Shown in pieces: positions 55,861 to 58,954 of a DNA stretch of 64,000 nt. The stretch is from Lysobacterales bacterium (GTDB lineage Bacteria; Pseudomonadota; Gammaproteobacteria; Xanthomonadales; Ahniellaceae). Location of the stretch: NCBI GenBank assembly GCA_043753835.1, contig JAYUVY010000089.1:6828-70827 (forward strand), in the 5' to 3' direction. The notes beneath the pieces were generated by a model, which saw only the letters and a program-made list of their open reading frames with translations, searched no databases and was not told where the DNA came from. The translations under genes and the position numbers were made by a program. The first letter of the stretch is position 1; every line of letters begins with the position of its first letter.

Positions 55861-57144
55861 ATGTTCTTCCTGCACGCGCTGTATACCCTGACCATGTACC
55901 TGCTGACCCCGGTGATCCTGTATCGCCTGGCATTGCGTGGTCTGGGTTATCGCGATTACTGGGGTCGCTGGCGCGAACGCTTCGGGTTTTTCGCTGACCC
56001 TGAACTGCAGGACACGATCTGGGTGCACGCGGTGTCGGTTGGCGAAATGAATGCAGCGGCGCCGCTGATCGAGGCGCTGATGAAACGCTTCGAGGGCCGC
56101 AAGTTTGTCGTCACCACGGTCACCCCGACGGGTTCGGCGCGGGTGCAGAAACTGTTCGGCGATCGCGTCTTCCATGTCTATCTGCCCTACGACCTGACCG
56201 CGTCGATCCGGCGCTTTCTAGACCGCGTCAATCCGTCGCTGGCGGTGGTGATGGAAACCGAGATCTGGCCGAATCTCTACTACGAGTGCGCGCGCCGCAA
56301 GATCCCGATCGTGCTCGCGAATGCGCGTTTGTCCGAGCGTTCGCTGAAAGGTTACGGGCCGGTTCGACCGCTGGCGCGCGAAGCGATCCGCTCGGTCGCT
56401 TTCGTCGCCGCGCAATCGCAACAGGACTACGTGCGTCTGGCGCAACTCGGCGCGCGCAACGAGCGCATGCGTGTCGTCGGCAACGTCAAGTTCGACATGC
56501 GCGTGCCCAGCGGCTTGCCGCGCATCGGCAAGGTGCTGCGCGAATACTGGGGCGAGAATCGGCCGGTGTGGATCGCCGCGAGTACCCATGAAGCCGAGGA
56601 GGCGTCCGTGCTTGAAGCGCACACGCGCGTGCTGCGGCGCTTTCCGGATTCGTTGCTCGTCATCGCACCGCGCCATCCGGAGCGCTTTTATCCTGTCGTC
56701 AAACTCTGCCGTGGCTACGGCCTGCGCACGCTGTCGCGTTCCGAAGACACGGTCGCGCGTCTGGACACCCAAGCATTTGTGGTCGACACCATGGGTGAGC
56801 TGCTGAACTTCTTCGCGGCCAGCGACTGCGCCTTCATCGCCGGCAGCTTCGACAACATCGGTGGCCACAACGTGCTGGAACCCGCTGCCGTCGGCAAACC
56901 GGTTCTGGTCGGGCCGCATACCTTCAATTTCGCCGAAGTCACCGAAAACCTGATCAGCGACGGCGCCGCCATCCGTGTCTCCAATGCGGTCGAACTCGGC
57001 GACAGCATCTCGCGCCTGATGGCCGACCCCAAAGCCCGTAGCCGCATGTCCGAAGCCGCCCTCGCCGCCGTCGAACGCGAACGCGGTGCCGTCAGCCGCA
57101 TCGTCGAAATCGTTGCGGCGGTGATGGCGGGGGAAGAGCCGTAA
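55861..57144 (+). CDS. waaA: 3-deoxy-D-manno-octulosonic acid transferase
   Basis: IWVHAVSVGEMNAAAPLIEAL...IAPRHPERF...GGHNVLEPAAVGKPVLVGPHTFNF. Confidence 0.9.
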   Translation: MFFLHALYTLTMYLLTPVILYRLALRGLGYRDYWGRWRERFGFFADPELQDTIWVHAVSVGEMNAAAPLIEALMKRFEGRKFVVTTVTPTGSARVQKLFGDRVFHVYLPYDLTASIRRFLDRVNPSLAVVMETEIWPNLYYECARRKIPIVLANARLSERSLKGYGPVRPLAREAIRSVAFVAAQSQQDYVRLAQLGARNERMRVVGNVKFDMRVPSGLPRIGKVLREYWGENRPVWIAASTHEAEEASVLEAHTRVLRRFPDSLLVIAPRHPERFYPVVKLCRGYGLRTLSRSEDTVARLDTQAFVVDTMGELLNFFAASDCAFIAGSFDNIGGHNVLEPAAVGKPVLVGPHTFNFAEVTENLISDGAAIRVSNAVELGDSISRLMADPKARSRMSEAALAAVERERGAVSRIVEIVAAVMAGEEP

Positions 57145-57201
57145 TGGTCGCTACTCCTGCGGCACGAAGCACAAGCGAGACTTCTTGGCTAAAGTCCGCG
57201 C

Positions 57202-57381
57202 ATGAAGACGAAGCAAGATCAATCCTGTGACGGTCATCCGCCGAGCACCCAGTCGTCCGCAGACAACCCGAAGCGTCCGACGCTTGCAGAACTTCTGGCG
57301 AGTTGCGACCTCAGCGCACCGTTCCCGCCGCCCGATCCAGAGTGGGAAAAAATGGCGGCGGTTGGCAGCGAAATTTGGTGA
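57202..57381 (+). CDS. 59-aa ORF resembling only the C-terminal half of a MazE/AbrB-type antitoxin (possible remnant)
   Basis: Hand translation: MKTKQDQSCDGHPPSTQSSADNPKRPTLAELLASCDLSAPFPPPDPEWEKMAAVGSEIW. The PTLAELL...EWE...VGSEIW pattern recalls the MazE C-terminus. There is no SpoVT/AbrB N-domain and no toxin gene follows. Confidence 0.3.
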   Translation: MKTKQDQSCDGHPPSTQSSADNPKRPTLAELLASCDLSAPFPPPDPEWEKMAAVGSEIW

Positions 57382-57397
57382 GGCGGGTTGAACAGAA

Positions 57398-57733
57398 ATG
57401 GAATCGACAATGAAACGTCGCGAACAAGTCTTGTTGAGTTTCTACGTCAAGTTTCATGGACGGACGCCGACGGTGATGGAGGCATTCGCCCGCCAGCCAG
57501 CGGTGTACTGGCTCGGGATGGCTGTGTTACTTGCCATCCCCATGTTCGCAACCGCTTGGTGGGAATTCGCGCAACTACAACTGCCCTTTGGCATCGTGGC
57601 GGGTGCGATGCTGCGTGACATCGGCTTGATGCTGCGATTCAAGCGCGACTGGCCGATCTTGGATCGCGCCTTAAATTGGAGCGAGATTGATCGGCGTCTG
57701 TCACAACAATCTGTGCGCCCATCGGCGGACTGA
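57398..57733 (+). CDS. two-TM hypothetical membrane protein
   Basis: VYWLGMAVLLAIPMFATAWWEF and LPFGIVAGAMLRDIGLML helices. GC is lower than in the flanking genes. I recognise no family. Confidence 0.45.
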   Translation: MESTMKRREQVLLSFYVKFHGRTPTVMEAFARQPAVYWLGMAVLLAIPMFATAWWEFAQLQLPFGIVAGAMLRDIGLMLRFKRDWPILDRALNWSEIDRRLSQQSVRPSAD

Positions 57734-57756
57734 GGCAATTCCACGCGTCATGCGGG

Positions 57757-57850
57757 CTCACATATCAAACTTGCGCAACTCGAAGCCGCTATCACCGCCG
57801 TCGAACGCGAGCGAGGTGCCGTCAGGCGAATTGTCGAATTCGACGCCGCG
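57757..57850. pseudogene. chimeric relic: a holC 3'-end copy (minus sense) fused to a waaA 3'-end copy (plus sense)
   Basis: 57757-57790 matches holC 58531-58564 at 30 of 34 nt, including the stop codon and the codons for GFELRKFDM. 57791-57850 matches waaA 57061-57120 at 49 of 60 nt without gaps. Both are hand counts. Confidence 0.75.
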
Positions 57851-57859
57851 ATGCTGCAG

Positions 57860-58138
57860 TCAACCGCGCTTGAGATTCCGATAAAAATTCTCGTGGCTGC
57901 CGAGCAAGAGCAACACCCGCATTTTCGGATTCCATTCGTAGGCCAGCAGCATCTGCTGGCGGTTGATCAGAAACTTGTGGACGTATATGCCGACGAGGTC
58001 GCCCTTTTTTGCCTCGCCGATCCCTGGGTTGGCGACGATCGTGCGCACCGCATCGTCCACCACGGCTTGGTGGCTGGCGGCGAGCTTCTTGTACACCCGC
58101 TTGAACGCGGGCATTTGCAATAGGGCGACGTCAGCCAT
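57860..58138 (-). CDS. type II toxin, RelE/ParE superfamily
   Basis: 92 aa with ...KGDLVGIYVHKFLINRQQMLLAYEWNPKMRVLLLLGSHENFYRNLKR. Overlaps the upstream antitoxin by 8 nt. Confidence 0.75.
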   Translation of the reverse strand: MADVALLQMPAFKRVYKKLAASHQAVVDDAVRTIVANPGIGEAKKGDLVGIYVHKFLINRQQMLLAYEWNPKMRVLLLLGSHENFYRNLKRG

Positions 58139-58394
58139 GTCGGCGCGGCGTGCGCGCTTTGGACGCCGCCTTCTTCGCCGGCTTGAGGTCGAACGGCTCG
58201 GCGAGTGCCCGGTCGGTGTGCTTGCTGATCAATAGCTCGCGCACGAATTCGATCGGCAAGTCCGGGTTTTCCAGAGCCGTCTTGCCGACCAGCGCCCAGA
58301 ACTCGATCTGCTGCGGAATCGAACGCCGCTCCGCGCCGGCCACGCGCTGCGCGGCGAGATAAATGGCATTGTCGATCCGGATCGCAGTGCCCAC
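58131..58394 (-). CDS. ParD-like antitoxin
   Basis: IRIDNAIYLAAQRVAGAERRSIPQQIEFWALVGKTALENPDLP is typical of the ParD-like antitoxin family. Confidence 0.7.
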   Translation of the reverse strand: MGTAIRIDNAIYLAAQRVAGAERRSIPQQIEFWALVGKTALENPDLPIEFVRELLISKHTDRALAEPFDLKPAKKAASKARTPRRHG

Positions 58395-58531
58395 GTCGCC
58401 ACCTCAATATGTAGTGAATTGCCACAACTGTAGTCAAGCGCTACGTTCGCGTCCAGCGTCCGCGTGACAACGGGTTGCGCACGTGTCGCTGCCCTTGACC
58501 AGCAGCCCATTTGGGCTGCCACTTCATGCAC

Positions 58532-58954
58532 TCACATATCGAATTTACGCAACTCGAAGCCGCGTGACTTGTAGGCGATCCAGCGCGCGCGTGAGCCTTC
58601 GCGGTCGGCGGTTTCGGCGGGGATGACTTCCTTGACCGATTCCGGATCGCCGGGCACGGCGCTGTCGCGCAGGTTGATGATGAGGGCGCGCAGCGGCGTG
58701 TCGACGTCGGGCGGAACGATCAGTATCGGCGTCAGGTCGTCTTCTTCGTCGCCGGCGATCTGGTGGGCGATGAAGGCGTCCGGATCGAATTCCCAGAGCA
58801 GCTCGTCGAGTGCTTCGGCCTGGTCGCGGTCGCGCGTATGAATCAGCGTCGGAATCTGCTGGTCGAAGGCTTTCTTCGCGAGTTCGCAGACAAGCAGCAG
58901 CGGGTTCTCGCGAAAGCGCGGTTTGTCGATCAGGTAGAAGTCAGCGCGGGGCAT
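58532..58954 (-). CDS. holC: DNA polymerase III chi subunit
   Basis: MPRADFYLIDKPRFRENPLLLVCELAKKAF...LDELLWEF. It sits downstream of pepA, as in other gammaproteobacteria. Confidence 0.88.
   Translation of the reverse strand: MPRADFYLIDKPRFRENPLLLVCELAKKAFDQQIPTLIHTRDRDQAEALDELLWEFDPDAFIAHQIAGDEEDDLTPILIVPPDVDTPLRALIINLRDSAVPGDPESVKEVIPAETADREGSRARWIAYKSRGFELRKFDM

What the first reader, a model, noticed from the sequence alone, without database searches (positions are those of the whole stretch)
57051..58564. Chimeric holC-end/waaA-end relic joined at a 9-nt microhomology separates two different cassettes at the waaA/holC junction
The interval between convergent waaA (ends at 57144) and holC (ends at 58532) contains, in order: cassette A (a MazE-like remnant and a small membrane protein, 57145-57756); a 94-nt relic; and cassette B (a RelE/ParE toxin with a ParD-like antitoxin, 57851-58531). 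The relic has two parts. A copy of the last holC codons plus the stop codon lies at 57757-57790, with 30 of 34 nt identical to 58531-58564 and still encoding GFELRKFDM*. It is fused to a copy of the waaA 3' end at 57791-57850, with 49 of 60 nt identical to 57061-57120 and encoding ITAVERERGAVRRIVEFDAA versus LAAVERERGAVSRIVEIVAA. The fusion point is the string CGAAGCCGC, which occurs in both genes (waaA 57051-57059; holC 58555-58563). The order holC-end then waaA-end is what a tandem duplication junction produces. A Campbell-type insertion of a circularised allelic segment (waaA end - cassette - holC end) would produce it too. Because the two cassettes are unrelated and the relic is only ~82-88 % identical to the resident genes, I favour capture of an allelic segment from a diverged relative that carried a different cassette at the same locus.
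Basis: seen in the sequence. Interest (0 to 1): 0.65.

Follow-up and report, generated by a model that had tools for sequence, protein, structure and literature searches.

The report
Recombination scar between two stacked cassettes
A roughly 90-base leftover, made of the tail ends of two neighbouring housekeeping genes (holC and waaA), marks where two different versions of the same small variable region were stitched side by side at a 9-base overlap; it is real and instructive, but it is an example of a known kind of recombination event.

Summary
Window 57757-57789 copies the last holC codons plus stop (30/33 nt). Window 57781-~57848 copies the waaA 3' end (82%). The two are fused inside CGAAGCCGC, which both genes contain. 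Scores are far above shuffles. Independent contigs from four sequencing runs reproduce the structure exactly.

Relatives show that the waaA/holC junction is a cassette hotspot. States found are empty, mazEF, higBA, a larger mixed islet, or this double arrangement. The holC half of the relic is 33/33 identical to the functional holC end of the two closest relatives. The waaA half is about 80% identical to every known allele. It diverges from the first base after the 9-mer, and mostly at third codon positions. So the joint links two functional alleles and is not a decayed in-situ duplicate.

Best explanation (0.6): one homologous crossover in a flanking gene plus one illegitimate joint at the microhomology (HFIR-like) stacked a second unit "waaA-end - cassette - holC-end" beside the resident one. 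Which unit was resident is unresolved. No waaA-parDE-holC donor was found. parDE is itself a free-moving 610-nt module. A second lineage (L163) carries the same joint next to mazF.

Verdict: a new instance of a known kind of event, of moderate interest.

The parts
55861..57144 (+). waaA (Kdo transferase), intact, 427 aa. Its last 94 nt (57051-57144) are the resident copy of the repeated waaA end.
   Evidence: NCBIfam NF004388 at 528 bits and Pfam PF04413. Repeat D1.
57145..57756 (+). Cassette A. It holds a mazE remnant (ORF 57202-57381; only 57262-57381 is homologous to MazE, and the DNA-binding N-terminus is replaced by unrelated sequence). It also holds a 111-aa (107-aa as called) ORF of unknown function at 57398-57733, which by eye has two hydrophobic stretches. 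There is no mazF.
   Evidence: tblastn 65-68% to MazE of L001, L002 and L005. The 111-aa ORF is 50% identical to an ORF beside holC in L002. No Pfam, NCBIfam or PADLOC family.
57757..57789 (-). Relic, holC half: the last 9 codons plus the stop of holC (GFELRKFDM*).
   Evidence: 30/33 to the resident end at 58531-58563. 33/33 to the functional holC ends of L001 and L164, and 33/34 in an X8 contig.
57781..57789 (.). Joint: CGAAGCCGC, shared by holC (58555-58563) and waaA (57051-57059). The crossover lies inside these 9 nt.
   Evidence: Direct reading and pattern positions.
57790..57848 (+). Relic, waaA half: a copy of waaA codons about -30 to -9 from a diverged allele. The last ~26 nt and the stop are missing.
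   Evidence: 47/59 to the resident waaA and 46-48/59 to the best relatives. 8 of its 12 differences are at third codon positions.
57846..58455 (-). parDE minimal module: parE 57860-58138, parD 58131-58394, and a conserved upstream region of ~60 nt (58395-58455), presumably the promoter/operator.
   Evidence: Pfam PF15781 and PF11903. Eleven or more metagenome loci carry the same ~610 nt at 85-90% identity in unrelated flanks, and homology stops at these edges.
58456..58531 (.). 76-nt spacer between the parDE module and the holC stop. It has a hairpin at about 58502-58520 and no match in any fetched locus.
   Evidence: blastn found no hits. An X6 contig covers 58357-58576 with 7 differences.
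58532..58954 (-). holC (DNA polymerase III chi), intact, 140 aa. Its end at 58531-58563 is the resident copy of the repeated holC end.
   Evidence: Pfam PF04364. Repeat D6.

Best explanation
The waaA/holC junction is a permissive slot where small cassettes, mostly type II toxin-antitoxin pairs, come and go among a group of recombining Lysobacterales lineages. Each cassette travels with the adjoining ends of waaA and holC. Here two such allelic units sit in tandem:
- unit 1 = waaA end - (mazE remnant + 111-aa ORF) - holC end;
- unit 2 = waaA end' - parDE - holC end.

They were joined by one illegitimate crossover inside the 9-nt microhomology CGAAGCCGC, between the holC end of unit 1 and the waaA end of unit 2. 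The simplest path is homology-facilitated illegitimate recombination on incoming linear DNA. One end of the incoming DNA pairs homologously in a flanking core gene. The other end, too diverged (~80%) for RecA pairing, is joined at the microhomology. The result adds the incoming unit instead of replacing the resident one, and leaves the 90-nt holC-end|waaA-end scar.

Shown: the joint, its microhomology, the allelic (coding-type) divergence of both halves, the hotspot nature of the locus, and the presence of the same joint in a second lineage.

Inferred: linear DNA, one homologous anchor, and a single event.

Unresolved: which unit was resident, and whether parDE arrived with unit 2 or was inserted into it later.
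For: 1. The relic is real and reproducible.

2. Occupancy states of the locus:
- empty, with abutting stop codons TGATCA (L004, L006);
- 31-47-nt spacers (L003, L165, L166);
- mazEF (L001);
- higBA plus a 207-aa ORF (L164);
- deacetylase + 163-aa ORF + mazEF + a homologue of the 111-aa ORF (L002);
- the window's double unit.

3. The holC half of the relic equals the functional allele of L001 and L164, 33/33. The resident holC end differs from it only by three synonymous third-position changes.

4. The waaA half differs from the resident copy at 12 of 59 sites, 8 of them at third positions. Over both halves 11 of 15 differences are at third positions (binomial P=0.0018). The first differences are the two bases right after the 9-mer. 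The halves are also asymmetric against L001: 0/33 versus 13/59, Fisher P=0.003.

5. Allele classes 15-16% apart already circulate in waaA. The window matches L164 over 56527-56860 (1.5% divergence) where L001 is 16% off. It matches L001 over 57047-57143 with 1 mismatch. This shows frequent recombination in these flanks.

6. L163, from another metagenome, has the same joint plus parDE (97.8% over 638 nt) but with a mazF end to its left, as in L001.

7. An independent parallel exists in L005. A 112-140-nt copy of the holC 3' end (97% identical, with a TAG stop instead of TGA) lies on the far side of a mazEF cassette from holC.

8. HFIR joints at 3-10-bp microhomologies are documented experimentally. 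HFIR has been proposed for additive toxin/immunity arrays (PMC6382021, PMC2884548, PMC5361080).
Against: - No donor-type locus (waaA'-parDE-holC, or unit 1 alone with the window's cassette A) was found.
- The homologous anchor crossover cannot be located. There is a cluster of 7 mismatches to L001 in 58541-58592 followed by 1 in 200 nt. This is only suggestive, given the mosaic background.
- The waaA copy of unit 2 lacks its last ~8 codons and reads on for 90 codons into parE antisense. A genome carrying unit 2 alone would therefore have had an altered waaA, unless parDE was inserted afterwards.
- Two different left-hand cassettes next to one identical joint (window and L163) need one of two things. 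Either there was a further crossover within the 33-nt holC copy, or the same 9-mer was used twice.
- Competence or another route of DNA entry is unknown for this organism.
Confidence: 0.6

Rival explanations
1. Campbell-type insertion of a circular allelic segment. A circle (waaA end' - parDE - holC end) closes at the 9-mer and then integrates by a crossover in the short holC-end homology. Once formed, such circles could also arise from the array by recombination between the repeats and carry the joint to other genomes.
For: It gives the observed order. It would explain why the identical joint with parDE sits next to two different left-hand cassettes (window versus L163). The 33-nt identity with the common holC allele is about the minimal length for RecA-dependent exchange, which is established knowledge cited in PMC2884548.
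Against: The relic carries the L001/L164-type base at all three diagnostic sites and the resident end the alternative base at all three. The integration crossover would therefore have to fall in the last 16 nt before or within the 9-mer. That makes two microhomology-scale events instead of one. A crossover in the waaA-end repeat would give the opposite cassette order, or would have to fall in the 9-mer itself. There is no evidence of circles and no joint reads.
Confidence: 0.15
2. In-situ tandem duplication of waaA end - cassette - holC end by slippage at the 9-mer, followed by replacement of one cassette and divergence or conversion of the copies.
For: The joint has exactly the end|start topology of a tandem duplication, and the resident genes do carry the 9-mer. 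L005 shows a 97%-identical holC-end duplicate that could be a young duplication.
Against: The cassettes are unrelated. Differences between the copies are coding-like (11 of 15 at third positions), not neutral decay. The holC half shows no change relative to relatives while the waaA half is 20% off. The allele switch starts at the base after the 9-mer, so any later replacement would itself need a crossover at the 9-mer. A 1.5-kb perfect tandem repeat would be unstable.
Confidence: 0.12
3. Site-specific insertion by a recombinase (integron-, XerCD- or integrase-type) that targets the holC 3' end.
For: Direct repeats of a target gene's 3' end flank the insert, as with many integrative elements. 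holC-end copies recur (window, L163, L005).
Against: The cassettes hold no recombinase gene. No shared motif appears at the cassette boundaries of L001, L002, L164, L163 and the window. The copy lengths differ (33 versus 112-140 nt). The partner sequence at the joint is another core gene's end, not an element end.
Confidence: 0.03
4. Assembly chimera of two co-existing strains that carry different cassettes.
For: The source is a metagenome in which related strains co-occur.
Against: Two independent Logan contigs from different runs span the whole region without a difference and at uniform depth. The relic's words are complete in four runs. The copies share no 31-mer that could mis-join a graph. 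An ENA assembly from another study has the same joint.
Confidence: 0.02

Closest known systems
Homology-facilitated illegitimate recombination (HFIR) in natural transformation (Acinetobacter baylyi, Streptococcus pneumoniae, Pseudomonas stutzeri; de Vries & Wackernagel 2002, Prudhomme et al. 2002, Meier & Wackernagel 2003, as cited in PMC6382021 and PMC2884548)
   Same: There is one illegitimate joint at a short GC-rich microhomology (9 nt here, 7 of 9 G+C; 3-10 bp in the experiments). It connects foreign or diverged DNA next to a homologous flank. It operates where divergence (~20%) is too high for ordinary exchange.
   Different: Here it is inferred from a natural scar, not observed. From my own recollection of the de Vries & Wackernagel (2002) report, which I could not open, the experimental outcome is usually insertion with loss of recipient DNA; here the outcome is purely additive and duplicates two gene ends. 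The anchor crossover and the route of DNA entry are unknown.
Arrays of orphan immunity genes and displaced toxin 3' ends at T6SS, Rhs and CDI loci (Vibrio cholerae; PMC5361080)
   Same: Toxin/immunity-type modules are added successively at one conserved chromosomal slot. Remnants of the previous unit are kept. HFIR is proposed as the mechanism, and retention of the resident protective gene as the selective reason.
   Different: Here the modules are type II toxin-antitoxin cassettes between two convergent housekeeping genes. The remnant is made of the ends of the flanking core genes, not of the toxin gene.
Microhomology-mediated tandem duplication junction
   Same: The same end|start joint topology, at a short repeat present in both parents.
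   Different: The two units are different alleles with unrelated cassettes and coding-type divergence that begins at the joint.
Integrative elements that carry a replacement copy of the 3' end of their target gene (for example tRNA- or gene-end-targeting islands)
   Same: A partial copy of the target gene's 3' end is left on the far side of the insert, and the gene stays intact.
   Different: There is no integrase and no conserved att core. The copy length varies, and the scar also contains the end of the opposite flanking gene.
Chromosomal toxin-antitoxin 'spots' of high turnover (Photorhabdus; PMC13617665)
   Same: Small TA cassettes cluster in discrete permissive intervals between core genes, with frequent gain, erosion (the mazE remnant here) and loss.
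   Different: That work attributes acquisition to mobile elements. A text search of the paper for 'illegitimate', 'microhomolog' and 'scar' found no occurrence. Here no mobility gene is present and a junction is preserved.

Membership tests
HFIR-type capture | Illegitimate joint at a short (3-10 bp), usually G+C-rich microhomology | tested here: met
   CGAAGCCGC (9 nt, 7 G+C) is shared by both parental sequences exactly at the switch point.
HFIR-type capture | The joint links DNA of two different origins (resident versus incoming allele) | tested here: met
   The holC half is 33/33 to the L001/L164 allele. The waaA half is 80% to all alleles and diverges from base +1. 11 of 15 differences are at third codon positions.
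HFIR-type capture | A homologous anchor crossover on the other side of the inserted segment | tested here: inconclusive
   Both flanks are mosaics of allele classes. A mismatch cluster at 58541-58592 and near-identity to L001 at 57047-57143 each fit one polarity, and neither is decisive.
HFIR-type capture | Uptake of linear DNA and RecA dependence | not testable with these tools
   Needs genetics in an isolate.
Tandem duplication | Novel joint of the type end-of-unit | start-of-unit | tested here: met
   The order is holC end then waaA end, both in native orientation.
Tandem duplication | Both copies derive from the same sequence (the same content, with differences by neutral decay) | tested here: not met
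   The cassettes are unrelated. The divergence is coding-type and is asymmetric between the halves.
Campbell-type integration of a circle | Crossover within a homologous segment, leaving hybrid direct repeats | tested here: inconclusive
   The repeats are not visibly hybrid. Only the last 16 nt of the holC copy could hold the crossover.
Site-specific cassette system (integron-like, Xer, integrase) | A recombinase gene and a conserved recombination site at cassette boundaries | tested here: not met
   No recombinase domain in the interval. Boundaries in L001, L002, L163, L164 and the window share no motif.
ParDE-type type II toxin-antitoxin pair | Adjacent, overlapping small genes with ParD-like antitoxin and ParE-like toxin domains | tested here: met
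   PF11903 (2.1e-14) and PF15781 (3.8e-33), with an 8-nt overlap and full-length matches. Toxicity was not tested.
MazEF toxin-antitoxin pair (cassette A) | MazE with a SpoVT/AbrB-type DNA-binding domain, plus a MazF/PemK toxin | tested here: not met
   Only the C-terminal ~38 aa of MazE remain and there is no PemK gene. The intact pair is present in L001, L002 and L005.

The most novel reading that the evidence does not exclude
The scar records addiction-enforced stacking. Simple allelic replacement would remove a resident toxin-antitoxin pair and kill or arrest the recombinant. Only additive, illegitimate integrations that keep the old cassette would then survive. TA hotspots would grow as tandem allelic units separated by chimeric remnants of the flanking core genes, and the remnant would later serve as a short homology handle for moving the neighbouring cassette.

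Three cases of a flank-gene end duplicated beside TA cassettes were seen here: the window/L163, L005 and L095.
Probability: 0.2. Interest if true: 0.6.

Novelty: new member of a known kind. Interest (0 to 1): 0.4.

Why it matters
How minimal toxin-antitoxin cassettes without any mobility gene enter and pile up in chromosomes is still described as unclear (PMC13617665). This locus preserves a base-resolved junction. It shows an element-independent route, in which flanking core-gene ends travel with the cassette and a microhomology joint adds the new unit beside the old one.

It also supplies a ready natural series for testing whether resident TA pairs bias recombination towards addition rather than replacement. 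The series runs from empty, through one cassette of several kinds, to two stacked units. For genome annotation, it is a reminder that short pseudo-ends of core genes in intergenic regions can be recombination scars rather than noise.

Tried and rejected
- Search for a donor carrying parDE alone at this locus. A JGI metagenome scan with ParE returned 80 loci, none with waaA or holC. ENA look-ups of 88-89% ParE homologues showed unrelated contexts. Low-depth contigs of runs X5-X8 showed other flanks.
- Search for a WaaA carrying the relic peptide. A 23-aa query was too short. A 43-aa chimeric query found no candidates.
The relic's words are indexed only in runs X1-X4.
- Function for the relic itself. 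No Rfam match in the region or the window. No tRNA. No promoter-like site and only chance-level terminator-like sites. The RNA fold is no better than shuffles, z=+1.75.
- PADLOC found nothing for the four small proteins.
- The 76-nt spacer 58456-58531 and the left 117 nt of cassette A match nothing fetched.
- The 15-nt inverted match 57116-57130 / 57786-57800 was judged to be chance. Two other pairs of equal quality occur in the same 2.7 kb.
- Using L001 or L164 to decide which unit is native was abandoned, once their ~8-9% background divergence and the mosaic waaA became clear.
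Full report
**What is there**

waaA (55861-57144, +) and holC (58532-58954, -) converge, and both are intact. The 1387 nt between them hold, in order:
- Cassette A (57145-57756). It contains a 59-aa ORF whose last 38 residues are a MazE C-terminus; the DNA-binding N-terminal domain is replaced by unrelated sequence. It also contains a 111-aa ORF that by eye has two hydrophobic stretches and matches no family.
- The relic (57757-~57848).
- A ParE-like toxin (57860-58138, -) with a ParD-like antitoxin (58131-58394, -) and their conserved upstream region (to ~58455).
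- A unique 76-nt spacer that runs up to the holC stop.

- 57757-57789 matches the holC end at 58531-58563 in 30 of 33 positions. 57781-57856 matches the waaA end at 57051-57126 in 62 of 76.
- The two tracts overlap in CGAAGCCGC, which is present in both genes.
- Scores are 35 and 24, against maxima of 14 and 12 in 300 dinucleotide shuffles.
- The relic still reads GFELRKFDM* on the minus strand and EAAITAVERERGAVRRIVEFDAA on the plus strand.
- It is not an assembly product. Independent Logan contigs of 3177 and 3425 nt from different runs cover pepA to waaA without a difference and at flat depth. The relic's 31-mers are complete in four runs. The copies share no 31-mer.
- One correction: homology to other parDE loci begins at 57846-57849. 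The waaA copy therefore ends near 57848 and lacks the last ~26 nt of the gene.

**The locus in relatives**

A scan of species-representative genomes with HolC showed that only the closest six (Lysobacterales / Ahniellaceae-type MAGs) have waaA next to holC. With three more contigs found through HolC homologues, the slot shows these states:

| State | Loci |
|---|---|
| Empty, stop codons abutting (TGATCA) | L004, L006 |
| 31-47-nt spacer | L003, L165, L166 |
| Intact mazE-mazF | L001 |
| higB-higA plus a 207-aa ORF | L164 |
| Polysaccharide deacetylase, 163-aa ORF, mazE-mazF and a 50%-identical homologue of the 111-aa ORF | L002 |
| Double arrangement | window |

 This is a cassette hotspot between two convergent core genes.

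**Origin of the two halves**

- The holC half of the relic is 33/33 identical to the working holC end of L001 and L164. It has one difference from a mazF-holC contig in run X8.
- The window's own holC end differs from that allele at three positions, all synonymous third positions.
- The waaA half is only 46-48/59 identical to the best alleles known (window, L001, L164, L166).
- Its first differences are the two bases directly after the 9-mer. 8 of its 12 differences are at third positions.
- Over both halves 11 of 15 differences are at third positions (P=0.0018).

Divergence of this kind accumulates in functional genes, not in a decaying duplicate. The allele switch also coincides with the joint. 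The joint is therefore an illegitimate crossover between two allelic versions of the "waaA end - cassette - holC end" unit.

Such allele classes do circulate. In waaA the window is 1.5% from L164 but 16% from L001 over 56527-56860. It is nearly identical to L001 over the last 97 nt. These lineages are about 91-92% identical overall and recombine often in these flanks.

**Mechanism**

One homologous crossover in a flank plus one microhomology joint on linear incoming DNA yields the structure in a single event. This is homology-facilitated illegitimate recombination (HFIR). It is documented experimentally with 3-10-bp microhomologies, and it has been proposed for additive toxin/immunity arrays.

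The alternatives each need at least two microhomology-scale events.
- A circle closed at the 9-mer would have to integrate through the last 16 nt of the holC copy. This follows because the relic and the resident end each keep their own base at all three diagnostic sites.
- An in-situ duplication would need a later replacement whose crossover again falls at the 9-mer.

No recombinase gene or shared boundary motif supports a site-specific system.

**What remains open**

- Polarity. Unit 1 (resident waaA end + cassette A + relic holC end) looks L001-like. Unit 2 (relic waaA end + parDE + resident holC end) differs from L001 by about the background divergence. Either unit could be the newcomer. 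The mismatch cluster at 58541-58592 and the near-identity at 57047-57143 each favour a different anchor.
- The second parent. No locus with parDE alone between waaA and holC was found.
- The arrival of parDE. parDE is a ~610-nt minimal module, running from its conserved upstream region to ~14 nt past the stop. It is found at 85-90% identity in at least eleven unrelated contexts. It truncates the waaA copy, which then reads on for 90 codons. It may therefore have been inserted into the scar region after the joint formed.

**A second lineage with the same joint**

L163 is a 901-nt ENA contig from another study. It is 97.8% identical to 57756-58393 and carries the same joint with one substitution. 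To its left lies a mazF end with the same mazF|holC junction as L001, not the 111-aa ORF. To its right, past the parD start, lies a PIN-domain fragment.

So the joint is older than the present cassette A. Alternatively it has been moved through the 33-nt homology, or the 9-mer has been used twice.

**Parallels**

- L005 has a 112-140-nt copy of the holC 3' end on the far side of a deacetylase-fragment + mazFE cassette. The copy is 97% identical to its own holC, with a TAG stop instead of TGA.
- L095 has a ~105-nt, 80%-identical copy of the 5' end of a DinB-like gene on the far side of parDE-higBA.

These suggest that partial duplication of a flanking gene end is a recurring footprint of TA cassette gain. 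This was not tested systematically.

**Verdict**

The finding is real. It is revised in mechanism, and the donor remains unproven. It is a new, well-preserved instance of a known kind of event. Its moderate interest comes from the question of how minimal TA cassettes spread and stack without mobile elements.

Noticed in passing
L005:8238-8377 (with holC at L005:6995-7417): A second, independent partial duplication of the holC 3' end. It is 112-140 nt long and 97% identical to the locus's own holC, with a TAG stop instead of TGA. It lies on the far side of a deacetylase-fragment + mazF-mazE cassette. waaA is not within 7 kb in this MAG.
   Followed up: partly
L095:3254-3352 and L095:4596-4694 (also L093, L096); L085 flanks: In unrelated metagenome loci, an ~105-nt, 80%-identical copy of the 5' end of a DinB-like gene lies upstream of parDE-higBA, and the intact gene lies downstream. 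L085 has 47-nt direct repeats (94%) on both sides of parDE. This may be the same kind of footprint.
   Followed up: partly
window 57846-58455; L082-L101, L167, L168: The parDE pair behaves as a discrete ~610-nt module. It runs from a conserved upstream stretch (presumably the promoter/operator, GGACGC..TTGCTACAATTGTCGCAATTCACTACA) to about 14 nt after the parE stop. It is 85-90% identical in at least 11 different genomic contexts, with no mobility gene and no terminal repeats.
   Followed up: partly
window 55861-57144 versus L001 and L164: waaA is a sharp mosaic. 56527-56860 is L164-like (1.5% versus 16% to L001). 56862-56967 is closer to L001. The last 97 nt are nearly identical to L001. This indicates frequent recombination among lineages that are about 8-9% diverged.
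   Followed up: partly
L163:1-180 (window orientation: right of the parD start): In the second lineage that carries the relic, the sequence upstream of parD (including the presumed promoter region) is replaced by a fragment of a PIN-domain (VapC-like) gene. This is either a further rearrangement or a chimeric low-coverage contig.
   Followed up: no
window 57398-57733; L002:3346-3681: A conserved 111-aa ORF of unknown function, with two hydrophobic stretches by eye and 50% aa identity between the two loci. It sits directly beside the holC end in both, downstream of mazE(F) on the same strand. It has no family in Pfam, NCBIfam or PADLOC.
   Followed up: partly
window 57145-57261: A unique 117 nt replaces the 5' part of mazE (the DNA-binding domain) and matches nothing fetched. 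This is another illegitimate event inside cassette A.
   Followed up: no
L004:7415-7421, L006:7415-7421: In empty-site relatives the stop codons of waaA and holC abut with no spacer (TGATCA / TAATCA). Every cassette at this slot is therefore a clear insertion.
   Followed up: yes
L164:1-1534: A close relative (HolC 98% identical) has a Cas9-like gene (Cas9_a, HNH_4 and RuvC_III domains) about 5.5 kb from holC, beyond lptFG and a XerC/D-type recombinase gene. The corresponding position lies just outside the window.
   Followed up: no
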